A DNA stretch of 64,000 bases from Planctomycetota bacterium (GTDB lineage: Bacteria; Planctomycetota; SZUA-567; H5-PLA8). The DNA lies in NCBI GenBank assembly GCA_026184295.1, contig JAHCJK010000002.1, positions 10,946-74,945 of the forward strand, read 5' to 3'. Below the pieces are notes generated by a model. It did not search any database. It was not told the origin of the DNA and saw only the letters and a program-made list of their open reading frames with translations. Positions 30,617 to 54,565 of the stretch are shown one piece after another; the first letter of the stretch is position 1; every line of letters begins with the position of its first letter. Both the position numbers and the translations under genes were made by a program.

Positions 30617-30624
30617 ATTTAACG
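30617..30624 (-). promoter_or_regulatory. ATTTAACG motif copy (CCGGGAATTTAACGCG), upstream of cargo operon
   Basis: One of four same-orientation copies of CCnG(G/T)GA(A)TTTAACG in phage region. Confidence 0.45.
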
Positions 30625-30630
30625 CGCGGG

Positions 30631-31044
30631 CTAACGCTTCCAGCCTTTGCCTTCAACCTTTCCGCGCTGGGGATGCTTGCAGCCGTAGAGGGGCAACGCT
30701 TCTTCCTTCCGGACCATGTTGATCCAGTGGCCCTTGAGCGTGCAGCCGCACCGGTCGCAGAAGAAGCGTTTCTTGCGCTCGTCGAAGCGGTAGTACTCGC
30801 AGGAACGGCAGGTTCCTTCGCGTTCGCGCTGAATCTCTTCCGAGACGTCCTTCGCGGTCAGCATGGCGGAACCGCCCGTGACCAGGCCGGCGAGGGTGAT
30901 TTCCTGTTCGTCGGCGATGATGCGGTTCACGTTGGCCATGAGGCCGGCGCGGTGCGCTTCCCAGCGTTCGGCGGGCAGGATGAAGGCGATGGGTTCGCCC
31001 GAATCCAGACGCCCCATGATCTTTACGAGCTTCTGCTTTTCCAT
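30631..31044 (-). CDS. hypothetical protein with C-terminal Cys4 zinc-ribbon
   Basis: CRSCEYY...CDRCGC motif; abuts next gene without gap. Confidence 0.5.
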   Translation of the reverse strand: MEKQKLVKIMGRLDSGEPIAFILPAERWEAHRAGLMANVNRIIADEQEITLAGLVTGGSAMLTAKDVSEEIQREREGTCRSCEYYRFDERKKRFFCDRCGCTLKGHWINMVRKEEALPLYGCKHPQRGKVEGKGWKR

Positions 31045-31467
31045 TCATTCGCCGCCCGGGATGCACGCGCAGAATTGGAGCACGTTCATGCACAGGTCCA
31101 TTTCTTCGTCGCAGTAACGGTCGATCACCGTGTAGTAGGCGCCCCCCGATGGGCAGTTCCCGCATGCATAGGTCGTGCATCCGGGCAAATCGTCCGTGCC
31201 GCAGGAGTCCGGCTCCGATACGCAGCCCGAAAACGAGACCGTCTCGACGGACTCGTCGCAACCAGGGTTCGTGCAGTCCTCGACCGTGGGATCGCAGGCG
31301 CAGCAAGGGCCGCTTGCGCAGCAGCAATCCGCCAGGCCCTGGAGCGTGCGCATGAGGCCGAGCTTGGCGAAAGCGAACAGGAGGAAGATCAACATCAGGA
31401 AGGCGTGGAGCCAGTTCCTTTCCTGGCCCAAGGCCTGGAGCGACGCGAGCAGTTCGGAGAAGCGCAT
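31045..31467 (-). CDS. membrane-anchored cysteine-rich protein (140 aa, 18 Cys incl. CCC and CCAC)
   Basis: N-terminal TM helix WLHAFLMLIFLLFAFAKLGL followed by Asp/Cys-rich domain. Confidence 0.5.
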   Translation of the reverse strand: MRFSELLASLQALGQERNWLHAFLMLIFLLFAFAKLGLMRTLQGLADCCCASGPCCACDPTVEDCTNPGCDESVETVSFSGCVSEPDSCGTDDLPGCTTYACGNCPSGGAYYTVIDRYCDEEMDLCMNVLQFCACIPGGE

Positions 31468-31469
31468 GG

Positions 31470-32210
31470 TTAGGGCGCCTCGTTGAGCTTGGAGGGCGAG
31501 ACGGCGAGTTCGTGGAGGTCGAAGTTCTGCCGGGGCTCGGGCGGTTCGCCTTCGCAGGAGAAGGAATCCGTGCCGAGTTCGATCTCCTGCGAGGCGATGA
31601 GGCCGTACGCGGAGACCGGATCGCCGAGGGCCTTCGTGACGCCGATGCGGTGCCAGTCGCCCGCGCGGGCGATGTAGAGGCCGTAATTCCGCACGAAGAC
31701 GAGCGCGCCGGCCGCGGGCGTGTAGCCGGTCAGCATGGCGCCGAGGCCGGTGAGGGTCTCGGCTTCCTTGGAGCCGTGGTCGATGCGGATCGGCTGGCTG
31801 AAGACGGGGACGACGACGTTCTCGGCATGGTATTCGAAGTGCCAGCGTTCGAAGCGCCGCCCGCCGCCGCGGACGTAGATGTCGGCGTCGAGGAGGTAGC
31901 GCGAGAAGGTATAGGCCCGGCGCCAGCGGTTTCCGGCCGTCGCGTTGGGGTTGAAATCCCAAATGCCGTTCTCGGTCTCGGCTGACTGCTTCCAGACGAG
32001 GACGCGGCAACGGCCGTTCGCCGCGTGGACGGTCGCGCAGCTAAGGGCGTCGAAGGGATTGTTCGTGTCGGGCGCGTCGGGAAAGTTCGTGTCGTCCCAG
32101 GTGGCCAGGTCGCAGACGATGCGCAGCGGTTTCGGGCGCGTGTTCGGATTGTTCCGAAGACGCGCGTCGAACTGCGCCGTGTAGGTATGCTGGGACTCGG
32201 ACCGGAACAT
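31470..32210 (-). CDS. phage hypothetical protein (246 aa)
   Basis: Starts 2 nt after stop of 720-aa gene. Trimmed from ORF 31470..32618. Confidence 0.5.
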   Translation of the reverse strand: MFRSESQHTYTAQFDARLRNNPNTRPKPLRIVCDLATWDDTNFPDAPDTNNPFDALSCATVHAANGRCRVLVWKQSAETENGIWDFNPNATAGNRWRRAYTFSRYLLDADIYVRGGGRRFERWHFEYHAENVVVPVFSQPIRIDHGSKEAETLTGLGAMLTGYTPAAGALVFVRNYGLYIARAGDWHRIGVTKALGDPVSAYGLIASQEIELGTDSFSCEGEPPEPRQNFDLHELAVSPSKLNEAP

Positions 32211-36340: not shown

Positions 36341-37615
36341 TTACCAGCCCGTGGACCAGACGCGGTAGGTGACCTTCACGCGGAGCACGCTGTCGTTCGC
36401 GGCGTTGCCGGCGATCTCGGCGCCGCCGGTGTTGTGGAGGACGAGGGCCTTGTTCTCGGAGCCGGACTTCGGGGCGATGGCGTCGAGCTTCGCGCGCGCG
36501 CTGGTTTGCGTATCGACGCTTTGATCGATGAAGCCCGTCGTCTCGACGGTCTCGGAGACCTGCACGCCGGTGCCGTCGTTGTAGCGGAACCCGAGGTTGT
36601 AGCCGGCTTCGGTGAAGACGTTGCTCCCGTAGTCGAGGAGCAGCGTGGCGCTCACGAATTCGATCACGCGGCCGGCGCCGGGCGCGGGCACCACGGAGAC
36701 GGGCGTCGCGCGCAGCGCCTTGACCTGCGCGCTGGTAAGGGCGATCTCGGCCGTGAACATCAGCCCGAGGGCGATGCGCTGGCCGGGGAAGAACCGGATC
36801 GCGCCCGTCGTCGCGTGCTTCGCAGCGACCACGCCGATCTGCCAGGGAATGCCCGCGGCCGGGGCCGAGAAGGCGAACGCGCCGGCGGTGGCCGAGAGGT
36901 AGACGGGCGAACCGATGGCCGCGGCGCCGCTGGTGTCGAGCCCGCCCACGGTCGCGTGGGGAAAGGCCGTGCCGTTCGCCGCGGTCGCGAGGTCCTCGGC
37001 GACGACGAGCAACGGGGGCTTGGCCGGATCGGCGGCGTCGGCCTTCGAGACGAGGACGCGGTTGAGTTCGAGGATGTTCGCGGCGTCTTCGTCGTCGGCC
37101 GTGTACGCGACGGTGACGGTTCCGGTCACTTCGGAGCCGTCCACGTCGACGAGCGTGATCGAGCCGTCGCCGGTGCGCGTGCCTTCCGCGACGAGTTCGG
37201 TGAGTTCGGGATCGGCGTAGAGCGAGACCGTGCGGTCCCCGCCGGTGTCGGTCAGGGTCCAGTACAGGCGGTCGTAGCGTTCGACGCCGTAGAGCACCCA
37301 GGTGCTCAACTGCGCGGCGCCGTCGCCCTGTTCATCGACCTGCAGGAAGCCGGAGGGATAGACGGGCGTGCCCGCGTCCAGCGTGCCGCCGGTCTGGTTG
37401 CGAACGCGCCAGGCGCCCGGCCCGCCGCGGACGAGGGCGGAGACGTAGCGCATCCAGGAGACCCATTCGTTCGCCTCGGTCGCGGAGAATTCCAAGGAAT
37501 TGTGGGCGTAGACGCCGGCGAGTTTCGAGTCGCTCGCGTCGTCGCGCGCGCGGAAGCGCTGCGATTCGAGGAAGAGCGCGAGGCCGGTGAGCCAGGGGTC
37601 CTGGGCAAGTTCCAT
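36341..37615 (-). CDS. phage tail fiber/tailspike protein, paralog A (conserved C-terminal domain)
   Basis: C-terminal ~150 aa (...KSGSENKALVLHNTG...RVKVTYRVWSTGW) ~65% identical to C-terminus of 46457..47776. Confidence 0.65.
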   Translation of the reverse strand: MELAQDPWLTGLALFLESQRFRARDDASDSKLAGVYAHNSLEFSATEANEWVSWMRYVSALVRGGPGAWRVRNQTGGTLDAGTPVYPSGFLQVDEQGDGAAQLSTWVLYGVERYDRLYWTLTDTGGDRTVSLYADPELTELVAEGTRTGDGSITLVDVDGSEVTGTVTVAYTADDEDAANILELNRVLVSKADAADPAKPPLLVVAEDLATAANGTAFPHATVGGLDTSGAAAIGSPVYLSATAGAFAFSAPAAGIPWQIGVVAAKHATTGAIRFFPGQRIALGLMFTAEIALTSAQVKALRATPVSVVPAPGAGRVIEFVSATLLLDYGSNVFTEAGYNLGFRYNDGTGVQVSETVETTGFIDQSVDTQTSARAKLDAIAPKSGSENKALVLHNTGGAEIAGNAANDSVLRVKVTYRVWSTGW

Positions 37616-39873: not shown

Positions 39874-40482
39874 CTAAATGAGCCCGCGGAGGCTTGCGCC
39901 GTCCGAGATTCGGGCGATGACTTGCGTGATGAGTTGGTCGCGGCGCGCGAACATGGGCGCGAGTTCTTCACGCGAGGCCGGCTGATAGAACGGGCGTACG
40001 CGGTTCAAGCGCGGGGCATAGTCGCTCAGGCTGTTGGACGCGCCGAAACGGAGGCCGCCCCAAAAGGCGTTGGCGCCGGCGACGGACAGGTTGCGGGACT
40101 TCTTCCGATGGCTACCGCCGCCGACGTAGCGCGGGGCCGCGCCGTCGCGGAACTGTTTGACGATCCGGTCGGGCGTGACGATGCGCCGGCCTTTCGTCGC
40201 CGCAGCTTTAAGCAGGCCGGAGCGCTGCAGAATCGGATGGTCGGCGGGGAAGCCGAGGCGCGCGCGCTGGCGGGCCGTGGACTTGGCCAGGCCGCGCCAG
40301 GGTTGGCCGGCCGAAGCGCCCTCGGTATCGAAGCGGCGTTCGATCAGGTCCTCGACCCAGCCCTCCCGCGCGAGCTGCTCGTTGACGCGTTGCGCGAGGG
40401 CGCGCGGATCGCGGAGGTAGCGCAGGGCCGAGTTCGCGCGGCGAAGCTGGCGGATGTAGTTTTCGCGGAGTTCGCCGGGCAT
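39874..40482 (-). CDS. phage hypothetical protein (202 aa)
   Basis: Basic. ATGA-type junction with downstream gene at 40482. Confidence 0.55.
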   Translation of the reverse strand: MPGELRENYIRQLRRANSALRYLRDPRALAQRVNEQLAREGWVEDLIERRFDTEGASAGQPWRGLAKSTARQRARLGFPADHPILQRSGLLKAAATKGRRIVTPDRIVKQFRDGAAPRYVGGGSHRKKSRNLSVAGANAFWGGLRFGASNSLSDYAPRLNRVRPFYQPASREELAPMFARRDQLITQVIARISDGASLRGLI

Positions 40483-40715
40483 TACCTTCGATGCTCCGTA
40501 TAGGTGCCGTCCGCCAGGCCTTCCCGAAACTTGGTGATCTCCCCCAAGATTTTCCGCAGGTTATTCTCCATCTGATTCTTGCAGCGGTAATCGGTGGGAT
40601 AGTTCCGCATGAAATCGCTCAGGTCCTCCCGTACCTGCTTTTCAAGCCGGACCATGCGCTCGTACCATTGAAGCCGCCAGCGGGCGTCTCTTTGCTCGGG
40701 ATGGTCAGCAGGCAT
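40482..40715 (-). CDS. phage hypothetical protein (~77 aa)
   Basis: Start MPADHPEQ chosen inside ORF 40482..40790. Confidence 0.4.
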   Translation of the reverse strand: MPADHPEQRDARWRLQWYERMVRLEKQVREDLSDFMRNYPTDYRCKNQMENNLRKILGEITKFREGLADGTYTEHRR

Positions 40716-40807
40716 ACGGAAGGTCCGTTGGGGGAAAGGGCCGGACGGCTTGGCTTGGCGTGCAAGCCGAGAGACAGGACGTTCGGCCAAGCCGCCCGGC
40801 GTTCCTG

Positions 40808-40816
40808 GATTTAACG
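40808..40816 (-). promoter_or_regulatory. GATTTAACG motif copy (CCTGGATTTAACGTT)
   Basis: Intergenic, ~90 nt upstream of 40715 start. Confidence 0.45.
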
Positions 40817-40843: not shown

Positions 40844-41410
40844 CTACGGCGCGGGGATCGGGGGTATCTCGTCGTCGGTCTCTATGGCCTTACGGTAACG
40901 CGCCAACCAGTCCTTTTGAACGTCGAGAGGCAGAATCGCCAACCGCGCGGCGAGGTCCGCGGAGGGCTCGTATTCGGCCGGGACGGGCACGGCCAAAAGT
41001 TCGGAATGCGGGTGCGGCCCGAGGTTCGGGAGATCGTCGGCGTGGTACTCGTCGAAGCCCATCTTGACCGGCGAGGAACCGTCCGGCGTGAAGCCGAAGA
41101 AGGTCTGCGCCTTGAGTTCGCGCGCGAGCGCGTCGGCCGTGCGGCGGAAGAGCGCGCGGAGGTGCGTCTCGAAGGAGGCCTGGAGGTTCCGGCGGGTTTG
41201 CGGGGCCACGTCAAGCCCGGTCGCGTCGGAGATTTCGGCTTCGGTCTTGCGCGTATCGACGGCGGCTTCCAGCGCGTTGCGCGGCTGGCGTACGCTCTCC
41301 GTCAGGTTGCGGGCCATGTTCTCCGCCAGGGCCCGGCCTTCGTCGCCGGCCGCGGCCTCGGCCTCCTTGGCGAAGGATTCCCAATCGAAGTCCTTTAAGG
41401 ATTCGTGCAT
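40844..41410 (-). CDS. phage hypothetical protein (188 aa)
   Basis: Start MHESLKDFDW; acidic. Confidence 0.5.
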   Translation of the reverse strand: MHESLKDFDWESFAKEAEAAAGDEGRALAENMARNLTESVRQPRNALEAAVDTRKTEAEISDATGLDVAPQTRRNLQASFETHLRALFRRTADALARELKAQTFFGFTPDGSSPVKMGFDEYHADDLPNLGPHPHSELLAVPVPAEYEPSADLAARLAILPLDVQKDWLARYRKAIETDDEIPPIPAP

Positions 41411-41414
41411 CTTC

Positions 41415-41858
41415 TTAGGCACGGGGCGAATCCTCCGCCGCGTCCGCGGCCTCGCCAAGCGCCTCGCGAATGCGCTTGATAGCGAGGCGGCGGAGCGCGG
41501 GCGTCATGCCGCCGACGAAGATGCCGGCGCGGTTCCGTTCGCCTTGGATGCCGAAGGTCTGTTCGCCGCGCTGGACCAGCGCGCCGAGGATGCGGTCGGT
41601 CTTGCCGCGGAACTTCCACTTCGCGCGGCGGTGGCCTCGCGCGGAAACGTCCACGCGGCCTTCGCGGTCGAAGGGAATCCGGCCGCGGGCCTCGCGCGCC
41701 AGGGCCACGCGGGAGCGCTGCCGGTCGCGTTCGTGTTCCGCCAGGCGGCGTTCGAACTCTTCGCGCGCCCATGCGAAGAAGGAAGCCTGCGCGGCGCGCC
41801 AGGCGTTGAACCAGGCAAGGGTTTCTTCGACTTGTTCGGGGTCGGGGCGTTCGGCCAA
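41415..41858 (-). CDS. phage hypothetical protein (147 aa, head-tail connector region)
   Basis: Compact gene. 4-nt gap to next gene. Confidence 0.5.
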   Translation of the reverse strand: MAERPDPEQVEETLAWFNAWRAAQASFFAWAREEFERRLAEHERDRQRSRVALAREARGRIPFDREGRVDVSARGHRRAKWKFRGKTDRILGALVQRGEQTFGIQGERNRAGIFVGGMTPALRRLAIKRIREALGEAADAAEDSPRA

Positions 41859-43126: not shown

Positions 43127-43381
43127 TCATTCACCGGGGGCGGGCGCTTGGGCGTTCGCGGGTTCGTCGGGCTCTTCGCCGGGGTCGGTCACGATCCACT
43201 GGCCTTCGTGGAGCGTGACCTTGTTGTTCGACTTCACGCGGCCCTGTTTGGTCTCGACGTAGACATGCGCCCGGACGTCTTCGGCGAGTTGGACGGGTTC
43301 CTTTTCAGGAACCACGACGGCCCTTGTGCCGCCGCACGACGTCTGCGAGACGCCGAGCGCGCACAGGATCGCGTACGCCAT
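43127..43381 (-). CDS. small secreted/lipoprotein-like phage protein
   Basis: MAYAILCALGVSQTSCGG signal-like N-terminus. Start uncertain. Confidence 0.4.
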   Translation of the reverse strand: MAYAILCALGVSQTSCGGTRAVVVPEKEPVQLAEDVRAHVYVETKQGRVKSNNKVTLHEGQWIVTDPGEEPDEPANAQAPAPGE

Positions 43382-43487
43382 CCACCGCGGTATCGGGCGC
43401 CGAAAGGATTTCACGAAGCACCTCCGCGATGATCGGCGCCAGGATTCCCAGGATGGCGACAAGCCATTCGGGCATGCCGGGGTTCCT

Positions 43488-43898: not shown

Positions 43899-44144
43899 TT
43901 ACGGCTTTCGCTGCAAGAGCGCGTCGAGTTTGTCGTTGAGTTCCTTCAGGTTCTTCTTGATCTCGGCGCTGTTGGCGTCGGCGGCTTCCTGCTTGGTTTC
44001 CATCCGGATGATGCGGCCTTCGTGGTCGAAGATTTTCAGAAGCTCCCAGCCGGCGATGCCCGAAACGATCACGAGCAGAACGCCGCCGAAGGTCTGAAGG
44101 GCGCGGTCGACGGTTATGAAGCGTTCCGCTTTTTCTTCCGCCAC
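43899..44144 (-). CDS. small membrane protein (holin-like, 81 aa)
   Basis: GTG start. Single TM GGVLLVIVSGIAGWELL then charged coiled-coil tail. Confidence 0.45.
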   Translation of the reverse strand: MAEEKAERFITVDRALQTFGGVLLVIVSGIAGWELLKIFDHEGRIIRMETKQEAADANSAEIKKNLKELNDKLDALLQRKP

Positions 44145-44305
44145 GCGCGAGGCCTTCCCGAAAGAACCACCGGCGAACCGCAGGCCGGGAGTCGTTGCTG
44201 TGCGTCGCCGCCGCAGACATAGCGGCCGTCGCGAAGTTCCGCCTTTACCGAGCGGCCCGGATGATCCATGCCTGTGCAGTTTCCGCGCGGCATGCGCCCT
44301 CCGGT

Positions 44306-44314
44306 GATTTAACG
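44306..44314 (-). promoter_or_regulatory. GATTTAACG motif copy (CCGGTGATTTAACGTT)
   Basis: Intergenic, ~160 nt upstream of 44144 start. Confidence 0.45.
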
Positions 44315-46456: not shown

Positions 46457-47776
46457 CTACCAGCCGGTAGACCAGACGCGGTAGGTGATCTTCACGCGTA
46501 CGGCGTTGGCCGCGTTGCCGCCGCCGAGTTCGCCGTCGCCGGTGTTGTGCAGGACGAGGGCTTTGTTCTCGCTGCCCGACTTCGCGACGATGGCGTCGGC
46601 CTTCGCGCGCGCGGTGGTCAGCGTGTCCGCGGTCGCGTCCACGAAGCCGGTCGATTCGATGGCGTCGGAGAGGGCCGCGCCCGATCCGTCCGTGTACTTC
46701 ACGGCGAGGTTGTCGTCGCTTTCGGTGTAGGCGCCCGTGTAGTCGAAGAGCAGCACGGCGCTGACGAATTCGAGGACCTTCCCGGAACCCGGCGCCGCGA
46801 CGAGCGTCTTCGGCGTCGCGCGGAGGTTCAGCATTTCGGTGTTCGTGATCGAGACTTCGGCGGTCTGGAGGATGCCGTCGCCTTCGCGCCCGCGGTTCAT
46901 GATCCAGGTCGTCGCGTCGATGGCTTCGAAGGTCGCGTTGCCGCCGCCGGGCAGTTCGATGGCCGCGTTCGCCGAGCGCGTGCCGATGGCGTCGCTCGAA
47001 GCCGGGTAGACCTTCAGGACCGCGGTGCCCACGGTGTTGTGGACGACGCAGCGCAGGCCCGCCGCCGCGGCCGGAAGCACAACGCCCTTTGTCCCGTCCG
47101 ACGCCGTGATGTAGTTGATGGCCTTGGTAAGCGCCGTGCCGTCGCCCTGGTTGCTGCCCGCCGCCGCGGCCGTCCCGATCCCGCCGGTGCCGTAATTGAA
47201 GCCGCCGTCCTTCAGGAGCACGCCGTCCACGGTCACGCCGGCCGCGCCGGTGCTTTCGGCGACGACGTCGGCCTTGACGCCGTTCGTCCCGAAGTCCTGC
47301 GCCTGGCCCGTCGCGCCCGCCGCCGATCCGTCCGCCGCCAGGAAGCCCGAAGAGGCCGCGCTGAACGCGAAGCCGTACCACGCGGAAGCATCGCACCAGA
47401 CGTAGCCCGCTTCGCCCTGGCCGATGGTGACGATGGTCGAACCGCCGGCGTTCTTGACGACGAGGTTCTCGGCCGCGTCCGCGCTGTTGACGATGAAGAA
47501 CTCGTAGCCTTCGCTCGTGCCCACCGCCGGCAGCGTGACGTTGCGCGAGGAACCGCCCGGGTCCATGCGCTGCACCTGCTTGCTGTCGGGATAGAGCGTG
47601 ACGTTCCCGGCCAGCGTCGAGTTCACGATCTTGCGGTCGAGGAAAATCTTCTTCCCGGCCCAGACCTGCTTGCCTTCCGAGACGCCGCCGGAGTCGGCCG
47701 CGCGAACGAGGTTCAGCCCGCTACCGCCAAGCAGCGCGAGCACGAAGAGCGAAAGAGCGAGCATGGGAAACTTCAT
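46457..47776 (-). CDS. phage tail fiber/tailspike protein, paralog B (conserved C-terminal domain), signal-like N-terminus
   Basis: C-terminus homologous to 36341..37615. DNA of 46457-46870 ~75% identical to 36341-36760. Confidence 0.65.
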   Translation of the reverse strand: MKFPMLALSLFVLALLGGSGLNLVRAADSGGVSEGKQVWAGKKIFLDRKIVNSTLAGNVTLYPDSKQVQRMDPGGSSRNVTLPAVGTSEGYEFFIVNSADAAENLVVKNAGGSTIVTIGQGEAGYVWCDASAWYGFAFSAASSGFLAADGSAAGATGQAQDFGTNGVKADVVAESTGAAGVTVDGVLLKDGGFNYGTGGIGTAAAAGSNQGDGTALTKAINYITASDGTKGVVLPAAAAGLRCVVHNTVGTAVLKVYPASSDAIGTRSANAAIELPGGGNATFEAIDATTWIMNRGREGDGILQTAEVSITNTEMLNLRATPKTLVAAPGSGKVLEFVSAVLLFDYTGAYTESDDNLAVKYTDGSGAALSDAIESTGFVDATADTLTTARAKADAIVAKSGSENKALVLHNTGDGELGGGNAANAVRVKITYRVWSTGW

Positions 47777-47827
47777 GGGAGGGTGTTCTCCGAAAGAGCC
47801 GTGGCGCCGCGCGCGAACGAAAGCCCG

Positions 47828-48526
47828 CTACTTGGGCAGGCGCTTGTAGTGCGGGATGGGCTTCTCGCCCTTGGCCGGCAGGCCGGCGAAGGCTTCCGGC
47901 CGAACGTTCTGCCGGAGCTTCCAGTCTTCCTTGTCGGGGCGCTTCGAGAAGTTGACCAGGAGGTCCACGACGGGAATGAAGCCGTCGCCCTTCTCCATCG
48001 TCTTGTGAAGTTCGCCGTCGTGTTCGACCAGGCGGACGACGGTTCCGTTGAGCAGCAGCGCCGGCGCCGGCTTCGCCAGGGCTTCATGGTACTCGCGCAG
48101 CGCTTCGACCTGCTTTTCGAGCGGAAGGCGCGTGATCTTTTGCAGCGTCGTGTACGGATCGGCCAGCGAAGGAATCTCGGTCAGGTTCCCGCGGTTGGTC
48201 GGGAGCGGCAGAATCCTGGCCGGGTACTGCGCGCCGTCGTTGTCCACGAAGATCACGGCCACGCACTTCATGCCCTTGCCCTCCGGATGGCGTTCGTAAT
48301 CCATCGGACCGCCGGGCGCGAAGCGGCCTTCGTTGCGCCGCTCGAACTTCTGCGCGGCTTTTTTGTCCGCGGCCTTGTCCGCGGCTTCCTTCTCAGCGGG
48401 CTCCTTCTCCGCGGTCGCAGCTTCGGGCGCCGAGGCATTCGCCTGCGCGGCGGCGGAAGGAATGGGAGCGCTCCCGTCGTTTCCGGCGGGAGCGCTCTTG
48501 CCGTCCTGCTTCTTCTTCCTGGGCAT
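47828..48526 (-). CDS. phage hypothetical protein (232 aa) with Lys/Ala/Glu-rich N-terminal region
   Basis: Located between coat and spike genes. Confidence 0.5.
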   Translation of the reverse strand: MPRKKKQDGKSAPAGNDGSAPIPSAAAQANASAPEAATAEKEPAEKEAADKAADKKAAQKFERRNEGRFAPGGPMDYERHPEGKGMKCVAVIFVDNDGAQYPARILPLPTNRGNLTEIPSLADPYTTLQKITRLPLEKQVEALREYHEALAKPAPALLLNGTVVRLVEHDGELHKTMEKGDGFIPVVDLLVNFSKRPDKEDWKLRQNVRPEAFAGLPAKGEKPIPHYKRLPK

Positions 48527-48583: not shown

Positions 48584-49612
48584 TTAATTGCCGGAGTAGT
48601 TGTGGATGCTCTCGACGAGCGGCAGTTCCTTGTGGTTCTCGTACCCCACGGACCAGTTGGCCGAGGACTTCAGGGCCGTCAGCGAGGGGTTCGCGCCGCC
48701 GGCGCCCGAGTTCCAGCCCATGTGGTCGGACTCGATGACGAAGTCGTAGTCCGCGCGCCATTGCGTGGTCTTGGTCTCGCGTTCGATGCGGCGGTCGGTC
48801 TCGATCTGCACGGGGCGGATGAAGCCCCCGCGCATGACGCCCGGACCGGCCAGAAGGGTGATGTACTTGTCGTACCCGGCGTCGGCGACGGTCAGGTCGG
48901 CGTTGTCCACGAAGGCGCGTTCCATGCCGTACACGTTGCGGCCGTCGTCGCCCTGGAGGTGCAGGCCCGCGACCATGTCGATGGCGCGGCCGTTCGCGTC
49001 GGTGCTGAGGTCCTTCTTCACCTCGGCGCGGGCGAGCAGCCAGCGCAGCACGCCGACGCGGTCGCCCATGAGGAAGCGGGCGCGGTCCAGCACGTTCGGG
49101 TCGAAGTTGGTGCGGGTCGAAGCGTTCCAGACGGTGTCCGTGTGCGCGCCGGCCGTCATCGCTTCCACCATGCCGATCAACGCCGCGATGAAGATGTTGC
49201 TCATGTCGTCGGCGACGATCTCGCCGGCCTGCCGGCCGAGTTCCGCGCTGATCTGCGCGGGCGAGAGGCCCATGAGGAAGATGTCGTCGGTGAACTCGAC
49301 GAGCGGAGTGCGGCGGTTCAGGATCACGCCCTTGTTGTTCCCGCCTTCCACCTTCACGGCCGTCAGCGCGCTGTTGCTCGTGATGTCGCGCCGTTCCGCG
49401 GTAACCGCGCGCTTGAAGTACGGGTTCTCCGTGTACTGCCCGCCCTTGCCGGCGTAGGCCGGCTGGTTCTGCAGGAAGATCGGGCGCTCGGGACCGCCGA
49501 CCCAGGTCTTGAGCAGTTCGTAGGAGCGCGTCACGAACGCCTTTTGCATGTGGGCGTTCATGATCTGCGGCACGGGCGTGAAGTCCGAAGGGAGCGAAGT
49601 TCCGGTTGCCAT
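48584..49612 (-). CDS. phage major capsid (coat) protein
   Basis: 342 aa. Position directly after scaffold gene in terS-terL-portal-scaffold-coat order. Confidence 0.65.
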   Translation of the reverse strand: MATGTSLPSDFTPVPQIMNAHMQKAFVTRSYELLKTWVGGPERPIFLQNQPAYAGKGGQYTENPYFKRAVTAERRDITSNSALTAVKVEGGNNKGVILNRRTPLVEFTDDIFLMGLSPAQISAELGRQAGEIVADDMSNIFIAALIGMVEAMTAGAHTDTVWNASTRTNFDPNVLDRARFLMGDRVGVLRWLLARAEVKKDLSTDANGRAIDMVAGLHLQGDDGRNVYGMERAFVDNADLTVADAGYDKYITLLAGPGVMRGGFIRPVQIETDRRIERETKTTQWRADYDFVIESDHMGWNSGAGGANPSLTALKSSANWSVGYENHKELPLVESIHNYSGN

Positions 49613-49615: not shown

Positions 49616-50392
49616 TTATTTACCTTTCCTGAGTTGGGCTTCGCCGGCCTGGATCACCGCGTTGGTTTCTTCCGGGCGAGCGTCAAGCCACTTGGCGAGA
49701 AGGTCTGCGTTGCCCATCAGGGCGTCGTACGAAGGGACGGTCGCGCCGGCGATCTCGTTCGCGCCGGTGGCGCCCGTACCGCCATCCACCTTCGTCTTGA
49801 CCCAATGGGGCTTGCGAACGGAGAGGTCCTGCATCGCCTCTTCGAGGGAGAGTTCGACGGGGACCGGAATCCCCAACTTCACTGCCGTCGAAGGAACGAC
49901 GAGCTTGCCTTCCTTGTTGACCACCTTCGGAAGGATTTCCTGGACGGCCTCGTTCGCGTCGAACCAGGTCACTTTGCCGGCAGCGGCACGGACGGCGTTC
50001 TCGGCTTCCTTCTGCGCGAGCTTGGCTTCCAGAGCGCCCACGGCTTCGCGCCAGTTCTTGTTGTCGTCGGCGGGCTTGCCTTCGCCGCCTTTCTCTTCGG
50101 GTTTCTCGGAGGGTTTGGGGAGATTCAGGCTGTCGACGTACTTCTTGACCGCGCCCTCGACGATGCCGGGGATCTGCGCGCCGAGGCCCTTGAAACCTTC
50201 CGCGATCTGCTGTCCGATGTCCGGTGCCGTAGCGGCGCCCGCGCCTTTGTCCCCTTCCTTCTTGTCGCCGGCGGCAACGCCGCTTCCCGCGCCTTCGGGC
50301 GAAAGCAGGGCGATGCCTCGCGCAACGGCGCCGGCGCCCGGGCTGAAGATCATCCCGCGGGGAGAAGGACCGTAATCTTTGAAGATGGCCAT
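49616..50392 (-). CDS. phage scaffolding protein
   Basis: Ala/Glu/Lys/Gly-rich helical composition. 3 nt upstream of coat gene. Start uncertain (50392, 50410 or 50437). Confidence 0.55.
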   Translation of the reverse strand: MAIFKDYGPSPRGMIFSPGAGAVARGIALLSPEGAGSGVAAGDKKEGDKGAGAATAPDIGQQIAEGFKGLGAQIPGIVEGAVKKYVDSLNLPKPSEKPEEKGGEGKPADDNKNWREAVGALEAKLAQKEAENAVRAAAGKVTWFDANEAVQEILPKVVNKEGKLVVPSTAVKLGIPVPVELSLEEAMQDLSVRKPHWVKTKVDGGTGATGANEIAGATVPSYDALMGNADLLAKWLDARPEETNAVIQAGEAQLRKGK

Positions 50393-50573
50393 GCTGGCGG
50401 AACCCGTCATGAAAGGAGGGCAAAGCACTTCATCCATCGATCTAACGTTCGAACAGGATTCAATCCGCGAATTTGGCGCTGTTCGGCGTTCGCCTGACGT
50501 TCTTTGCCAACCGCGGCAAGATGGCGTCGCACAGGGTTACGGTAAGGCCGAGACAGGGCCTTCCGGTTCGGGT

Positions 50574-52181
50574 TCAGTCCTCGCGCTCGGCGGGTTTTTC
50601 GGCCGGACCTTTTTTCCTGCCTTGGTCGGGAGCCGGTGGCGGTTCGGGCGGCTTGAGGGCGTTGCGCAGCGCGGCCTCCGGCCGCGGGTCCTTGTCGCGA
50701 AGCGCTTCGATCTCCTTCTTGATCTCGTCGAACGATTGCTCGTCGAGGTTCGGGAGCAGGCCTTGCACGCCCTTAAGCAGCAGTTGAATCGCGGCGCCGT
50801 TGACGCCGAGCGCGAGGAAGAAATCGACGGCCTCGGACAGGGAGGCGAATTCTTCCGCGGGGCTCGCAATGTCGAAGCTGTCCGGGAAGGTAATGGAGAT
50901 CGCCTTGGCGTCCGTTTGGCCTTCCGCGCGGCCGATGACTTCGAGCAACCACTGAAAGCCGGCCTGCAGGCAGATGCTGAGGAGAAAGAGAATCCGTTCT
51001 TCCGTGGTCTTGAACGTCCAGGCCTTCGAGACGCCCGACTGTTCGACCGCGACCGGAAGCGCCGCCGCCCCGTTCTTCCCGCCCGCGTCCTTCGCCTTGG
51101 ACACGAGCATCTGATGGATCGTCATGAGGTGCTGGATCGGCTGCGCGTCGGTATGCACGAATTCGAGGGCTTCGCCTTCGTTTCCCGTCAGCGCGTTCTT
51201 GTTCTTAAGCGGAATGAACCGGGAAGTTCCCAGTTCGAGTTCTTCGATCTCATCTTCGGTTCGATCTGTTTTGAGCGTGAGGATCGGGCAGAGCATGTAG
51301 GCCTGCCAAAGCAGTTCGCTCAATACCCACATGGCCGCAACGTCGGCCTGCGCGGCGCCCGCGAGGATCGGACGGCCGATCTTGTCCTTCTTCACCGGGA
51401 AGGGATGGAAAAAGCGGAAGGGAACGATGCCCGCGTTCGCCGCATCGGTAAAGCCGTGCTTGACGGGCGGGAAGGTTTCGATGCTGTATTTGCCGTCCTG
51501 AGTCGGCTGTTCAAGCTCCGTGATCTTGAACAGGGATATGTTCTCCCGGTCCACGATCCGGACGGTGTGGACCTTGACCGGTTTCGCGTTCCAGGTACCG
51601 GCCTCCAGGGAGACTTCGTGGAGCTTCACGTACACCAGGCCTTCGGCGTTCGAGGAGAAGTTGAGAATCTGCTCCGCCGAGTAGATCGCCATGTAGACGC
51701 GGCCGAGATCGCGGCTTTTCTTCTCGGCCATGGAAATCTCTTTACCCTGGAGTTCCTTGGGGACCGGGCGGCGGTCCAGAAGGATGCCGTGAAAGCCGTT
51801 GCACTGATCCAGCTCCGAGGACTTGGCGACGACGTCGAGCAGGGTCATGCCGGAAAGGGTCGCCTGCGTTTCAAGGTACTTCATCGAATCGGGCAGGGTG
51901 ATCGCGGGCGGAGTACGGCAAAGCGCGCCCTGGCGCGACTGGAGAATCCCGGGGGTCTCGGCGAAGACCGGCGTAAGACGCTTGCGCTTATCGTACTCTT
52001 TCTCGTGTTCGTTGAGGTGCTGCGGAAGGTACGTCTCCGTCTTCATGGCCGCGGGGCCTTCGAGCACGTCCTCGACGATCATCCATTGCTTCTGAAGCTC
52101 GTCGAGGTCGGAGCGTTTGGACAATAGCGCAGCCGCCAATTCGTCGGTCTTGGGAACGGCAGCCGGGGTTTGGATCGCCAC
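50574..52181 (-). CDS. phage portal protein
   Basis: 535 aa, directly downstream of terminase large subunit. Confidence 0.65.
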   Translation of the reverse strand: MAIQTPAAVPKTDELAAALLSKRSDLDELQKQWMIVEDVLEGPAAMKTETYLPQHLNEHEKEYDKRKRLTPVFAETPGILQSRQGALCRTPPAITLPDSMKYLETQATLSGMTLLDVVAKSSELDQCNGFHGILLDRRPVPKELQGKEISMAEKKSRDLGRVYMAIYSAEQILNFSSNAEGLVYVKLHEVSLEAGTWNAKPVKVHTVRIVDRENISLFKITELEQPTQDGKYSIETFPPVKHGFTDAANAGIVPFRFFHPFPVKKDKIGRPILAGAAQADVAAMWVLSELLWQAYMLCPILTLKTDRTEDEIEELELGTSRFIPLKNKNALTGNEGEALEFVHTDAQPIQHLMTIHQMLVSKAKDAGGKNGAAALPVAVEQSGVSKAWTFKTTEERILFLLSICLQAGFQWLLEVIGRAEGQTDAKAISITFPDSFDIASPAEEFASLSEAVDFFLALGVNGAAIQLLLKGVQGLLPNLDEQSFDEIKKEIEALRDKDPRPEAALRNALKPPEPPPAPDQGRKKGPAEKPAERED

Positions 52182-52194
52182 TGCTCAACTCCTT

Positions 52195-53700
52195 TTACGC
52201 GCGGGCAAGTTTGCGTCGCAGTTTTCCCGCCCGCCGCCAGTAGCCGTCCGCGGCCTGGCGCGTGCCTTCCAGACAAATGCGGACGCCCTTGCGAACGCGC
52301 GGGTTCTGGAGGCCGGGGAGCGCCACCGCTTCCTTGCCCTTCGCCGTTCCGGCAACCAGCGCGCGAACCAGGTCGATGCCCTGTGCGATCTCGCCTTTGG
52401 TTCCGCCCCTGATTTGACGATGGGCGACGGTGGGCACGTTCATCTGGCCGAGCAGGACAATCGAATCCGGGCGCGAGCGGTCCGCGACCGTGCGCTTGAT
52501 TGTCTCGCCGGCGCTGCGCTCGTAGATGCGGCGCGCGTGGTCCGGGACGCTCAGGCCTTTGCGCGCCGAATCGAGCACGTACATTTCGCGGTAGATGTGG
52601 ATGCGCCCGCGCAGGCCGAAGGTCACGACGGCGTACCGGATCGCGTCCATCGCGTGGTTGTTTTCGTCGGCCGGCTGCCCGTCCGGGCCGTTCGTGTACG
52701 CGAGGAATTCGTTGATCGTCTCGACGCACGACGGATCGACCGTCAGGCCGGGCGCTTCGCCGGGGATCTGCGCGATCCACAGGCAGACGAAGGGATCGAC
52801 GCCGCCAAAGTCGATGGCGCGGTAGCGAACCCAATCGGGGTGTACCGGGATTCGACGGACGAACCGCGCGTCTTCCGTGAAGAGCGCGTAGATGCGGCCT
52901 TCGGCGGACTCGAACGCTTCCTCCGGCGTGCGAGGATATTCCCGCTTCATGTACAGCGGGTCTTCTTCGTGCGATTCCTTTTCCTGCTTGTACCAGGCCT
53001 CGTCGCGCAACGGGTGCGCGTCCCAGCCGTAGAAGACGGGCTTGTATTTTTTCTTGCCGTTCTTCGCGAGCTTCCAAAGCTGGCGAAAGTGCCCGTCCGG
53101 ACCGCCCGAGGTCGTGAGGATGACCAGCTGGCCGTTGCCGGTTTCGAGCGTCGGCTCCGCGGCGTTGAGAATCTTCTTCAGCCACGGCACGTAATCGGCC
53201 TCGTCGATGATGACCAGGTCGGAGGCCAGCGAACGGAGCGCGCGCTTGGTCGGGGCGAAGGAACGAATCCAGGAACCGTGCCTCTTGTAGTTGAATTCGA
53301 GACGCGTCTTGCTGTCGCGCGTCGGGGTGCGCTTCAACCAGGCGGGCAGGTGATCGAGGACGAAGCGGCATTTGTCGAGGAAGTCGGCGGCGAATTCCTT
53401 GTCCTGCGAAATGACCGTAACCGTGTACATGCGGAAGTAGAGCACGCGCCAGACCGCGTAGGCCGCCAGCAGCCAGGTGAAGCCGAGCCGCCGGGCTTTC
53501 AGCAGGAGCAGCCATTCTCCTTTCAAGAGGCCCTGGCTGAATTCCTTCTGGCACGGATAGAGACCGAATGCGATCGGCTTGTGCGTCGCCTTGTCTTCGA
53601 TGAAGCAGAGTTTCGCGCACCAATAAAGGAAACCCGCGAAGCCGGCGACGATGCGCGCGACTTCGTCCTTGATCGATTTCTTGGAGCGCGTCCGGTTCAT
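52195..53700 (-). CDS. phage terminase large subunit
   Basis: 501 aa after trimming ORF 52195..54315 to MNRTRSKK. ATPase region LLLKARRLGFTW; C-terminal nuclease-like region. ATGA overlap with terS. Confidence 0.75.
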   Translation of the reverse strand: MNRTRSKKSIKDEVARIVAGFAGFLYWCAKLCFIEDKATHKPIAFGLYPCQKEFSQGLLKGEWLLLLKARRLGFTWLLAAYAVWRVLYFRMYTVTVISQDKEFAADFLDKCRFVLDHLPAWLKRTPTRDSKTRLEFNYKRHGSWIRSFAPTKRALRSLASDLVIIDEADYVPWLKKILNAAEPTLETGNGQLVILTTSGGPDGHFRQLWKLAKNGKKKYKPVFYGWDAHPLRDEAWYKQEKESHEEDPLYMKREYPRTPEEAFESAEGRIYALFTEDARFVRRIPVHPDWVRYRAIDFGGVDPFVCLWIAQIPGEAPGLTVDPSCVETINEFLAYTNGPDGQPADENNHAMDAIRYAVVTFGLRGRIHIYREMYVLDSARKGLSVPDHARRIYERSAGETIKRTVADRSRPDSIVLLGQMNVPTVAHRQIRGGTKGEIAQGIDLVRALVAGTAKGKEAVALPGLQNPRVRKGVRICLEGTRQAADGYWRRAGKLRRKLARA

Positions 53701-54158
53701 CAGAGGTCTTCCAGCGTGGGACCGTCCAGCGGCGCGGCCTTTCGCGACGCGGCCGGCTCCGGCCGCGGCTTCTGGCGGATGCGTTCGATTTCGCGAAGGA
53801 GGCGCGTGTAGAGTTCGACGAGCGTGCTGTCCTTCAGGTTCTGCAAGCGCGGCAATACTTGTTCCTGAACCTTCTTCAGAATGTCGAGGTCGCGCCCGCG
53901 GCTGGACGTGAGTTCCTCGCGCGCGCGGACTTCTTCCTTGGCCTGCGCGGCGTCTTCTTCGATGGCCTTCAGGCGCCGCGATTCGTCGTCGTAGATTTTC
54001 TCGAAGGCCTCCTCTTCCCGCATGCGGCGGATCGTCGCTTCGCCGATCTTGTCGAAGGTCTCGTACTCGGTGCGCAGCGCGCGGGCCGCGGCGCGAATGT
54101 TTCCGCCGGCGCGCGCGAGCTCGCGGGCGATGAGACGCTTTTGTCGGGGGGTGTACAT
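53700..54158 (-). CDS. phage terminase small subunit candidate (HTH)
   Basis: 152 aa, N-terminal HTH-like RQKRLIARELARAGGNIRAAARAL, coiled-coil; stop overlaps terL start. Confidence 0.55.
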   Translation of the reverse strand: MYTPRQKRLIARELARAGGNIRAAARALRTEYETFDKIGEATIRRMREEEAFEKIYDDESRRLKAIEEDAAQAKEEVRAREELTSSRGRDLDILKKVQEQVLPRLQNLKDSTLVELYTRLLREIERIRQKPRPEPAASRKAAPLDGPTLEDL

Positions 54159-54244
54159 GTTCGAAGAGGAGAAGCCGGGGAACGCGCGCGGGACGGGTCT
54201 GCTTTCGCTGCGCGCCCGCCGTTCCAGCCGGCCTCCCCAGCCTT

Positions 54245-54565
54245 TCAGGCGTGGAAGAGTTGTTCGACGTGCGAGGCCTTGGGATCGTCCTCCGGACGGT
54301 TGCCGTCCTGGTCAAGGTTCCCGTGATTTAACGCCCGCCGTTCTTTGCGAATCCAGTCGCGCATGCGCCAGTTCACGCGGCTGCGCCACCATGCGTAGGT
54401 ATGCCGGCCGGGGATTTCGAGGACGATCACGGCCGCGTGCTGCTTGAGATCGTCCTGCGTGGCCGCGTCGCCCGGCGCGATCCGGCGGGAAGCGATCCGG
54501 ATGTCGCGCGAAAGCTGGCGGCTCGCGCACATTTCCTGAGCGGAGAACCGCGGTTTCGTTTTCAT
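54245..54565 (-). CDS. phage hypothetical protein (106 aa)
   Basis: Start overlaps stop of 54562..54867. Confidence 0.4.
   Translation of the reverse strand: MKTKPRFSAQEMCASRQLSRDIRIASRRIAPGDAATQDDLKQHAAVIVLEIPGRHTYAWWRSRVNWRMRDWIRKERRALNHGNLDQDGNRPEDDPKASHVEQLFHA
54326..54334 (-). promoter_or_regulatory. GATTTAACG motif copy (CCCGTGATTTAACGCC)
   Basis: ~170 nt upstream of terS start. Confidence 0.45.

What the first reader, a model, noticed from the sequence alone, without database searches (positions are those of the whole stretch)
30617..54334. Conserved phage motif CCnG(G/T)GA(A)TTTAACG occurs at least 4 times, same orientation, each upstream of a gene block
An AT-rich motif occurs at 30617-30624, 40808-40816, 44306-44314 and 54326-54334, all on the same strand, within 24 kb of phage DNA. 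Such an 8/9-mer is expected well under once by chance in a 64-kb, 68% GC window. Flanks are also similar (CCGGGA-, CCTGGA-, CCGGTGA-, CCCGTGA-). Each copy lies 90-170 nt upstream of the first gene of an apparent transcription unit: the cargo operon, the head-tail block starting at 40715, the membrane-protein block at 44144, and terS at 54158. Read on the coding (minus) strand it is CGTTAAATC. It is likely a phage promoter element (a -10-like TTAAAT with upstream CG) or a binding site for a phage transcription factor. A degenerate copy (CCATTAACGCTCG, 54888-54900) lies upstream of 54867.
Basis: seen in the sequence. Interest (0 to 1): 0.6.

Follow-up and report, generated by a model that had tools for sequence, protein, structure and literature searches.

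The report
Phage late-promoter motif with its own mini-sigma
A short sequence, CGTTAAAT followed four bases later by GGA, recurs on the coding strand at gene-block boundaries of a Planctomycetota prophage and two distant relatives; it is most likely a promoter with no -35 box, read by a tiny phage-encoded sigma-like protein whose gene lies next to it.

Summary
ATTTAACG occurs four times, only on the + strand. All phage genes run on the minus strand, so in the sense of transcription it reads CGTTAAAT.

The 8-mer count alone does not survive multiple testing (about 42nd of all 8-mers). Four other results do:
- It is the top 8-mer in 1.2 kb of phage intergenic DNA (3 observed, 0.003 expected).
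- With one mismatch allowed there are 9 sense and 0 antisense hits, none in host DNA.
- CGTTARAT-N4-GGA gives 4 hits against 0.07 expected.
- Two relatives with about 50% protein identity carry CGTTAA-type motifs at the same syntenic places.

Site 4 lies inside a gene and is written with two rare codons (TTA AAT), in both phages that have it.

That gene encodes a 106-aa protein. Its family gives weak matches that point almost only to sigma-70 region 2, and none to region 4. The gene co-occurs with the motif.

Best reading: an ECF-style -10 promoter element (C-14 G-13 T-12 ... T-7, start at the conserved A) with no -35 box, working like T4 gp55 late promoters. No transcript data exist, so promoter function and the sigma link are inferred. 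I rate it a new variant of a known kind, of moderate to high interest.

The parts
54319..54333 (-). Site 4 (position B): CGTTAAATcacgGGA, inside the 3' part of the sigma-like gene, 168 nt upstream of the terS-like ATG at 54158
   Evidence: It codes A-L-N-H with the rare codons TTA (2 of 758 Leu codons) and AAT (9.5% of Asn), joint P 2.5e-4. L143 has the same codons at the homologous residues.
44300..44314 (-). Site 3: CGTTAAATcaccGGA, in the gap after the fibre genes, 13 nt before the ATG of the conserved 59-aa ORF 44114-44293 and 163 nt before the holin-like gene
   Evidence: The ORF is conserved in L005. It shares a gapped 54-nt similarity with site 1, z 6.3.
40803..40816 (-). Site 2 (position D): CGTTAAATccaGGA, 28 nt after the stop of 40844-41458, followed by a strong hairpin and then the ATG at 40715
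   Evidence: hairpin z -4.5. L005 has GCGCGTTAACCC at the syntenic gap, before the neck gene.
30610..30624 (-). Site 1: CGTTAAATtcccGGA, 7 nt after the stop of 30631-31044 and 121 nt before the moron pair (30298-30495 and 29162-30307)
50433..50447 (-). Position C variant: CGTTAGATcgatGGA in the portal-scaffold gap
   Evidence: L143 has the exact CGTTAAATgaatGGA and L005 has GCGCGTTAACTC in the same gap.
54888..54901 (-). Position A degenerate copy: CGTTAATGggggGA, in the gap upstream of the 101-aa gene and the sigma-like gene
   Evidence: L143 has CGTTTAATggggGGA in a homologous block, and L005 has CGTTTACT.
28674..28682 (-). Possible weak copy CGTTAGATC, overlapping the TAG stop of the formyltransferase-like ORF and about 30 nt before the next ATG
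   Evidence: Uncertain; it may be chance.
28069..28077 (-). Possible weak copy CCTTAAATC, overlapping a TAA stop and about 85 nt before the deoxyribosyltransferase gene
   Evidence: Uncertain.
54245..54565 (-). Gene for the 106-aa protein with sigma-70 region 2 only (P0027), the proposed reader of the motif
   Evidence: Pfam Sigma70_r2 in the L005 orthologue: E 2.4e-4, profile positions 3-69 of 71. 21 of 41 family members hit Sigma70_r2 and none hit region 4. NCBIfam hits are almost all sigma models. AF2 pLDDT 85.6, with Foldseek top hits to ECF sigma region 2. It co-occurs with the motif.
54562..54867 (-). 101-aa gene overlapping the start of the sigma-like gene (ATGA), conserved in L143 and L005; a possible partner, function unknown
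55335..55562 (-). HTH_17 (MerR/excisionase-type) DNA-binding protein, the alternative candidate reader of the motif
   Evidence: E 1.4e-10. It is conserved upstream of the packaging genes in L005, L143 and L145.

Best explanation
The motif is the -10-type core of a set of phage middle or late promoters that have no -35 box.

Read in the sense of transcription (minus strand) it is C G T T A A A T - N4 - G G A. I assign C-14 G-13, then T-12 T A A A T-7, then a 6-nt discriminator ending in GG, with the conserved A as the start site.

At least six copies sit at module boundaries:
- before the 101-aa and sigma-like gene pair;
- before terS, TerL and portal;
- before scaffold and major capsid;
- before the small ORF and the lysis-like block;
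- before the neck and tail block;
- before the moron block.

I propose that host core RNA polymerase is directed to these sites by the 106-aa phage protein encoded at 54245-54565. This protein has a sigma-70 region 2 domain (binding to the clamp helices and recognition of the -10 element) and no region 4, so no -35 box is needed. That is how T4 gp55 reads the 8-bp late promoter.

Shown: recurrence, strand and intergenic bias, syntenic conservation, rare-codon embedding, weak but consistent sigma-region-2 matches across the protein's family (the query itself matches no model), and co-occurrence of the gene and the motif.
Inferred: that the element is a promoter, the position of the start site, and that this protein is its reader.
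For: 1. Enrichment and polarity.
- Top 8-mer in phage intergenic DNA, 3 observed against 0.003 expected.
- 9 sense against 0 antisense hits at up to 1 mismatch, none in host DNA.
- CGTTARAT-N4-GGA: 4 observed against 0.07 expected.

2. Conservation across relatives of about 50% protein identity, at the same syntenic places.
- L143 has CGTTAAAT in the portal-scaffold gap and inside the sigma-like gene, 2 observed against 0.10 expected.
- L005 has its only two CGTTAA, both sense and both intergenic, in the portal-scaffold gap and before the neck gene. GCGCGTTAAC occurs twice against 0.012 expected.

3. Site 4 is written with TTA AAT. P is 2.5e-4 here and 0.012 in L143. In L005 the sigma-like gene lies after terS and lacks the motif.

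4. Geometry.
- The A lies 7 nt after the hexamer in 7 of 9 copies in this phage and L143.

5. No sigma-70-type -35/-10 promoters in the phage region 27-64 kb: 1 hit (inside the methyltransferase gene), no more than shuffles give.

6. The protein.
- Pfam Sigma70_r2 in 21 of 41 family members, and no other family in more than 2.
- NCBIfam hits are nearly all sigma models, including the Rhodopirellula/Verrucomicrobium sigma-70 family at 1.9e-4.
- Confident AF2 model whose best PDB and viral neighbours are ECF sigma region 2 domains.
- D39 and Q42 are invariant, and W66 and R67 nearly so.

7. Co-occurrence.
- The gene is present in the window, L143 and L005, which all have the motif.
- It is absent from the fetched parts of L001, L002, L004, L141 and L142, which lack the motif. 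L002 and L004 show TTGAC-type promoters instead.

8. Precedent: T4 late promoters are an 8-bp box at -10, read by gp55, a protein with sigma region 2 homology (PMC2988020, PMC7892883).
Against: - No transcript 5' ends, and no biochemical data.
- The hexamer has T, not A, at the assumed -11, so it is not a sigma-70 -10 box.
- The query protein itself hits no Pfam or PDB sequence model. All sigma hits are below curated cut-offs. Foldseek E-values are 0.9-10. hhalign against E. coli RpoE gave the expected register but a probability below 1%.
- Implied leaders are uneven. The assumed start is 7 nt before the ATG at site 3. In the portal-scaffold gap it lies downstream of the ATG at 50437, so another start codon must then be used. 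At sites 1 and 4 the leaders are 113-160 nt.
- Five of 14 copies have a (G/A)TTTT tract 17-22 nt upstream, which the -35-less model does not explain.
- More distant phage-like elements with the same protein family (L144, L145) show no CGTTAAAT series but a different repeat, placed as inverted pairs.
- The comparative sample is small: three genomes with the motif and five without.
Confidence: 0.5

Rival explanations
1. The motif is the operator or activator site of a conventional phage DNA-binding regulator, for example the HTH_17 protein at 55335-55562, the Xre-type protein at 56903-57187 or the MarR-like protein at 61773-62108. That regulator would switch the gene blocks on or off together with a host sigma factor.
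For: Three helix-turn-helix proteins are encoded just upstream. The HTH_17 gene is conserved next to the packaging genes in L005, L143 and L145. Late activators encoded beside terS, with a target promoter upstream of terS, are known in Gram-positive phages (RinA; PMC3152322). The enrichment, polarity and conservation data fit a protein-binding site equally well.
Against: The motif is not palindromic and has no second half-site, which is unusual for dimeric HTH proteins. No accompanying -35/-10 promoter for a host sigma is found at any site. HTH_17 is also present in L145, which lacks the motif series.
Confidence: 0.17
2. The element acts in the RNA. It would be an AU-rich single-stranded patch between GC-rich hairpins in a long polycistronic transcript, serving as an endonuclease (RNase E/G-type) processing site or as an unstructured ribosome-loading or stability element.
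For: Strict sense-strand polarity. The motif is mostly unpaired and flanked by hairpins in minimum-energy folds, with strong hairpins after site 2 (z -4.5) and site 3 (z -2.4). Five copies lie 9-17 nt before a possible start codon, some without a Shine-Dalgarno sequence. Rare-codon embedding is also expected for an RNA signal.
Against: Sites 1 and 4 are 120-168 nt from any start codon. No shared secondary structure, and folding z-scores are ordinary at sites 1 and 4. No Rfam family at E up to 1. Exact conservation of 8-9 nt plus a fixed GGA is tighter than known RNase E preferences (own knowledge). This reading does not explain the co-occurring sigma-like gene.
Confidence: 0.13
3. The sites are recombination linkers, that is, short conserved boundary sequences at which phage modules are exchanged, and have no regulatory role.
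For: All four exact sites coincide with breaks of synteny against L005: a moron block after site 1, an extra ORF after site 2, a junction between L004-like fibre genes and L005-like genes at site 3, and a swapped order of terS and the sigma-like gene at site 4. Sites 1 and 3 share 54 nt of gapped similarity.
Against: The portal-scaffold gap and the gap before the neck gene are syntenic in all three phages yet still carry the motif. An 8-nt identity is too short for homologous exchange. Morons typically bring or need a promoter, so the coincidence with mosaic joints is also expected for promoters (own knowledge).
Confidence: 0.05
4. Chance: AT-rich words collect in the few non-coding stretches of a GC-rich genome, and the reader picked one after the fact.
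For: The whole-window 8-mer statistic is weak, ranking about 42nd, with 1 of 100 shuffles reaching 4 copies. The variants at 52411 and 43407 lie in coding sequence and look like noise. Pattern scans of IMG/VR found only scattered single matches.
Against: Bonferroni-corrected P of 4e-4 within intergenic DNA. A 9:0 strand bias. Independent recurrence at syntenic places in L143 and L005. Rare codons at site 4 in two phages.
Confidence: 0.05

Closest known systems
T4 late promoters read by gp55 (with gp33 and the gp45 clamp)
   Same: A phage-encoded protein with sigma region 2 homology and no region 4. The promoter is a single AT-rich box of about 8 bp at -10 with no -35 element, present in many copies ahead of late genes (PMC2988020, PMC7892883).
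   Different: The sequence is CGTTAAAT, not TATAAATA. The protein is 106 aa against about 185 aa, and it shows no evident helix-loop-helix extension or clamp-binding tail. No gp33 or gp45 homologue was found. The region 2 domain here is closest to ECF sigmas. The host is a Planctomycetota bacterium, and the virus is a temperate phage of about 40 kb or more, not a T4-like phage.
ECF (group 4) sigma factor promoters
   Same: A CG dinucleotide directly upstream of a -10 element beginning with T (C-14 G-13 T-12), as reported for most ECF holoenzymes (PMC6372665). The protein's best matches are ECF region 2 models and structures.
   Different: ECF sigmas have regions 2 and 4 and need an AAC-type -35 box at fixed spacing. 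Here no region 4 was detected in 41 family members, and no element sits at a constant -35 distance.
Late-gene activators encoded next to terS in temperate phages (RinA/Ltr type)
   Same: The regulator gene lies immediately upstream of terS, and its target lies just upstream of terS, controlling the packaging and morphogenesis genes (PMC3152322).
   Different: Those phages have one late promoter. Here there are six or more copies spread over 24 kb. Homology to RinA was not tested. The mechanism proposed here is sigma replacement, not activation of a host-sigma promoter.
Two-subunit (split) sigma factors such as B. subtilis SigO-RsoA (own knowledge, not checked here)
   Same: A very small polypeptide carries the region 2 function separately from the rest of the sigma.
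   Different: No partner carrying region 4 was identified. The adjacent 101-aa gene has no detectable domain, and its structure could not be predicted with an alignment.

Membership tests
Sigma-70-family -10 promoter element (ECF style) | Lies about 10 bp upstream of a mapped transcription start | not testable with these tools
   No transcript data. The only indirect support is a conserved A 7 nt after the hexamer in 7 of 9 copies.
Sigma-70-family -10 promoter element (ECF style) | CG immediately upstream of a hexamer that begins with T (C-14 G-13 T-12) | tested here: met
   CGTTAAAT at all four exact sites, CGTTAGAT and CGTTAATG at two more, and CGTTAAC in L005. The preference is described in PMC6372665.
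Sigma-70-family -10 promoter element (ECF style) | Partner -35 element (AAC-type) at a fixed spacing of 16-17 bp | tested here: not met
   The GGAAG/GGATT-like words upstream lie at 12, 15, 16 and 21 nt. No sigma-70-type pairs either.
T4-type late promoter system (gp55/gp33/gp45) | 8-bp TATAAATA box | tested here: not met
   The motif is CGTTAAAT. Only the TAAAT core is shared.
T4-type late promoter system (gp55/gp33/gp45) | Specificity protein with sigma region 2 homology only | tested here: inconclusive
   Sub-threshold Sigma70_r2 hits in 21 of 41 family members, and none to region 4. Fold neighbours are sigma region 2 domains, but at E 0.9-10. The query itself has no hit.
T4-type late promoter system (gp55/gp33/gp45) | Co-activator gp33 and sliding clamp gp45 encoded by the phage | not tested
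   Neither appeared in the partial PHROG and Pfam scans of window genes. Not all ORFs were scanned, there was no dedicated search, and the phage runs off the window at 64000.
Sigma-70 protein family (for the 106-aa protein) | Region 2 domain (Pfam PF04542) above the curated cut-off | tested here: inconclusive
   The best score is 21.3 bits against a cut-off of 24, covering profile positions 3-69 of 71, in the L005 orthologue. NCBIfam TIGR02937 in 9 members and TIGR02989 at 1.9e-4.
Sigma-70 protein family (for the 106-aa protein) | Region 4 (-35 recognition, flap binding) | tested here: not met
   No Sigma70_r4 hit in any of 41 members at E up to 1. Lengths are 93-192 aa.
Known structured RNA families (Rfam) | Match to a covariance model | tested here: not met
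   No match at E up to 1 in 27000-64000.

The most novel reading that the evidence does not exclude
A family of minimal sigma factors about 100-190 aa long, with region 2 only, is confined to phages and small phage-like elements of Planctomycetota. The 106-aa member here would be among the smallest promoter-specificity subunits known. It would direct host RNA polymerase to -35-less promoters of the form CGTTAAAT-N4-GGA. Sigma and promoter co-vary between relatives (CGTTAAAT here and in L143, GCGCGTTAAC in L005). One promoter is embedded in the sigma gene itself.
Probability: 0.4. Interest if true: 0.7.

Novelty: new variant of a known kind. Interest (0 to 1): 0.6.

Why it matters
Hardly anything is known about how phages of Planctomycetota control their genes.

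If the reading is right, it gives a testable promoter and sigma pair for that phylum. It would be a second, independent case, besides T4 gp55, of a region-2-only specificity factor working without a -35 element. It would also be a very small orthogonal sigma and promoter module of possible use in engineering GC-rich bacteria.

It further gives an annotation rule for the 41 'hypothetical' proteins of this family, and a way to predict operon starts in related prophages.

Tried and rejected
- **Close relatives.** None found. Megablast of 25 kb against INPHARED phages gave no match. The major capsid protein and a 57-nt tag gave nothing in GTDB genomes. The source contig is not in the gene-position index. 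I therefore could not see the phage beyond 64000 or the rest of the host genome.
- **IMG/VR pattern scans.** CGTTAAATCACNGGA gave 111 stretches of DNA and TAGCCCG-N2-3-CGTTAAAT gave 24. All were single matches, mostly in low-GC contigs and coding contexts, so there is no other phage group with a series of this motif.
- **Sigma-70 promoters.** The -35/-10 scan of the phage region gave 1 hit (inside the methyltransferase gene), no more than chance.
- **Fixed -35 partner.** Rejected because the spacing varies.
- **The motif as a -35 box.** Nothing -10-like lies 16-18 nt downstream (read).
- **CtrA, IHF, DnaA and Chi-like sites** (from memory). The half-sites or consensus are absent, there are no copies in host DNA, and the intergenic bias does not fit Chi.
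- **TAA of the motif as a backup stop codon.** It is in frame at only 2 of 4 sites, which is chance level (read).
- **Shine-Dalgarno or ribosome-loading element.** This fits sites near start codons but fails at sites 1 and 4.
- **Shared RNA structure.** None, and no Rfam hit.
- **The 43407 and 52411 variants.** They lie in coding frames and were set aside.
- **The L144/L145 repeat GCTTACTTACGTGCGCGGCTC.** It looked like a cognate promoter for the distant sigma-like genes, but it occurs as inverted pairs on both strands, so it is a different kind of element.
- **Sequence searches of PDB with family profiles.** No sigma hit.
- **hhalign against RpoE.** Not significant.

Full report
**What is in the window.** GC3 frame analysis shows that every plausible gene from about 27.5 kb to the right end lies on the minus strand. 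PHROG and Pfam scans identify a phage, listed here in the direction of transcription:
- HTH regulators and a Dam-like methyltransferase (62-55 kb);
- a terS-like gene (53700-54158);
- TerL (about 52195-53703);
- portal (50574-52181);
- scaffold-like gene (49616-50437);
- major capsid protein (48584-49612);
- fibre-like genes;
- a holin-like gene;
- a neck protein (39874-40482);
- large tail genes;
- a block of accessory genes (30.5-27.5 kb).

The capsid protein is 100% identical to a protein of a Planctomycetota MAG, on a 110-kb contig. The next best relative has 54% identity.

**The observation.** ATTTAACG is at 30617, 40809, 44307 and 54326, always on the + strand. In the sense of transcription it reads CGTTAAAT.

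**Is it more than chance?** The raw count is weak evidence. It is 4 against 0.61 expected by shuffling, with 1 of 100 shuffles as high. Markov models expect 0.13-0.66, and the word ranks about 42nd among all 8-mers. In context it is strong:
- In 1,209 nt of phage intergenic DNA, read in the sense direction, CGTTAAAT is the most over-represented 8-mer: 3 observed, 0.003 expected, Bonferroni 4e-4.
- CGTTAAATC with up to one mismatch gives 9 sense and 0 antisense hits in the phage part, against 1.2-2.5 expected per strand, and none in the 27 kb of host DNA.
- A GGA follows the 8-mer after four bases. CGTTARAT-N4-GGA occurs 4 times against 0.07 expected. This pattern was derived from the same data.
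- Sites 1 and 3 share 54 nt of gapped similarity, z 6.3.

**Corrected anatomy.**
- Site 4 lies inside a gene (54245-54565) that is conserved in two relatives.
- Site 3 is 13 nt upstream of a conserved 59-aa ORF.
- Site 2 is followed by a very stable hairpin (z -4.5) and then a 77-aa ORF that the closest relative lacks.
- Site 1 precedes a widely travelled accessory pair. The ATPase/GNAT protein is 67% identical to Burkholderia phage phiE255 gp29.

**Comparative evidence.** No close relative exists, so I used three loci of about 50% protein identity, fetched through the capsid protein.
- L005 is a prophage in another Planctomycetota MAG and is the most syntenic. It contains CGTTAA only twice in 21 kb. 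Both copies are sense, both are intergenic, and both read GCGCGTTAAC (0.012 expected). One is in the portal-scaffold gap and one is in the gap before the neck gene, which is the place of our site 2.
- L143 has the exact CGTTAAAT twice in 13 kb (0.10 expected). One copy is in the portal-scaffold gap, as CGTTAAATgaatGGA. The other is inside the homologue of our 54245-54565 gene, at the very same residues.
- L143 also has a block homologous to our degenerate copy: CGTTTAATGGGGGGA against CGTTAATGGGGGGA.

**Codon test at site 4.** There the motif codes Ala-Leu-Asn-His as GCG TTA AAT CAY in both phages. TTA is 2 of 758 leucine codons in this phage, and AAT is 9.5% of asparagine codons. The joint probability is 2.5e-4 here and 0.012 in L143. 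In L005 the same gene lies after terS rather than before it, and it lacks the motif. Selection therefore acts on the nucleotides, not on the protein.

**What reads it?** The gene that contains site 4 encodes a 106-aa protein.
- Neither this protein nor a three-sequence profile of it hits Pfam or PDB sequences.
- Its L005 orthologue matches Pfam Sigma70_r2 over nearly the whole model: E 2.4e-4, 21.3 bits against a cut-off of 24.
- An exhaustive search and a profile search gathered 41 small 'hypothetical' proteins, many named as Planctomycetota MAG proteins. Of these, 21 match Sigma70_r2, no other Pfam family is matched by more than two, and none matches region 4.
- NCBIfam hits are almost all sigma-factor models, including a Rhodopirellula/Verrucomicrobium sigma-70 family at 1.9e-4.
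- The family has no PHROG.
- An AlphaFold model is confident, pLDDT 85.6 and above 90 for residues 1-80. Its nearest PDB and viral-structure neighbours are mostly region 2 domains of ECF sigma factors, but at E 0.9-10.
- D39 and Q42 are invariant, and W66 and R67 nearly so. From my own knowledge these sit where sigma region 2.2 (DxxQE) and region 2.4 lie.
- An HMM of the family finds the gene in the window, L143, L005, L144 and L145. It does not find it in the fetched parts of L001, L002, L004, L141 and L142. Those lack the motif, and L002 and L004 carry TTGAC-type promoters.

**Mechanism proposed.** ECF sigma factors consist of regions 2 and 4, and most of them prefer C-14 G-13 directly upstream of a -10 element that starts with T-12 (PMC6372665). 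Our motif fits that layout as C-14 G-13 T-12 T A A A T-7. The conserved A of GGA then falls 7 nt after the hexamer, where a start site is expected.

There is no -35 partner. The upstream words vary in spacing, and the scans find no more sigma-70-type promoters than chance.

A protein with region 2 only, reading an 8-bp box at -10 without a -35 element, is how T4 gp55 works (PMC2988020, PMC7892883). I therefore propose that the 106-aa protein replaces the host sigma on core polymerase and starts transcription at these six or more sites. The sigma gene's own 3' end carries the promoter for the packaging genes.

The arrangement of a regulator gene directly upstream of terS also recalls the RinA-type late activators (PMC3152322).

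**What is not shown.**
- No 5' ends and no binding data are available.
- All sigma evidence is sub-threshold and rests on consistency across the family.
- The implied leaders are uneven: 7 nt at site 3, and 113-160 nt at sites 1 and 4. In the portal-scaffold gap the assumed start falls just past the ATG at 50437.
- Five copies have a (G/A)TTTT tract 17-22 nt upstream, which remains unexplained.
- L144 and L145 carry distant members of the protein family, yet they have a different repeat that occurs in inverted pairs.

**Rivals.**
- An ordinary HTH regulator site. Three HTH genes lie nearby.
- An RNA processing or loading signal. The motif is unpaired between hairpins, but no shared structure and no Rfam family was found.
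- Recombination linkers. All four exact sites are at mosaic joints, but two of the conserved positions are not.
- Chance. This is largely excluded by the comparative and codon data.

**Verdict.** The motif is real and functional, with high confidence. It is probably a promoter element, with moderate confidence. It is plausibly paired with a new family of mini-sigma proteins, at about 40%. I rate it a new variant of a known kind.

Noticed in passing
window 27523-30495: An accessory ('moron') block follows site 1. It has a 65-aa protein (phrog_28816) and a 381-aa ABC-ATPase/GNAT fusion (phrog_11143). The fusion is 67% identical to Burkholderia phage phiE255 gp29 and is also found in Gordonia, Porphyromonas, Streptococcus and Leptospira phages, next to an 'acr candidate' in some of them. 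These are followed by a formyltransferase-like ORF, a membrane ORF and a nucleoside 2-deoxyribosyltransferase. The block may act in DNA modification or counter-defence.
   Followed up: partly
window 56061-56906: A D12-class (Dam-like) adenine methyltransferase gene sits in a stretch of 51% GC, while the window averages about 65%. This suggests recent acquisition.
   Followed up: no
window 36341-37615 and 46457-47776: Two fibre-like proteins share a C-terminal domain of about 140 aa (a 234-nt direct repeat at 72% identity). The same domain occurs in L001 and L004.
   Followed up: no
window 44114-44293; L005 13845-14024; gaps in L001, L002, L004: A small ORF (59 aa here; CxxC zinc-ribbon-like in the relatives) is conserved just before the holin-like gene. 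Gene finders did not call it in the relatives.
   Followed up: partly
L144 9920-15255; L145 9560-18695: Blocks of about 9 kb contain HTH_17, the sigma-like gene, TerL, portal, a Gp13-like capsid protein and a few small genes. They lie next to a Ser/Thr kinase gene. They could be gene-transfer-agent-like or satellite-like elements. They carry GCTTACTTACGTGCGCGGCTC as inverted pairs about 45 nt apart in several gaps.
   Followed up: partly
L143 4387-4602 and 7302-7462: Two intergenic gaps share arrays of GCGCAAAG (three copies) facing CTTTGCGC copies. These are large inverted repeats of unknown role.
   Followed up: no
L002 3606-3712 and 7571-7667: A relative that lacks the sigma-like gene has a repeated sigma-70-type promoter, TTGACGATnnAACTTTCCAnnGTAyTGA, before its terS-like and portal genes.
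   Followed up: no
L005 4199-4309 and 18966-19165: Tandem CTCGGAAC units lie directly in front of two start codons, and GGACTGAGG repeats lie nearby.
   Followed up: no
window 40732-40805: A very stable hairpin (-42.9 kcal/mol, z -4.5) lies directly downstream of site 2 and before the ATG at 40715.
   Followed up: partly
window 43305-43475 and 43127-43381: A short ORF with a transmembrane-like N-terminus overlaps, in another frame, an ORF that starts with a lipoprotein-type signal (MAYAILCALGVSQTSCGG). The arrangement resembles a spanin pair.
   Followed up: no
window 47823-47841; L005 11793-11865: A terminator-like hairpin follows the capsid gene and the 232-aa gene. L005 has a clean intrinsic terminator at the same place.
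   Followed up: no
upstream of motif copies at 54901 and 40816 (window), 4569 and 9260 (L143), 9217 (L005): A (G/A)TTTT tract lies 17-22 nt upstream of the CG of the motif in 5 of 14 copies, roughly where a -35 region would be.
   Followed up: no
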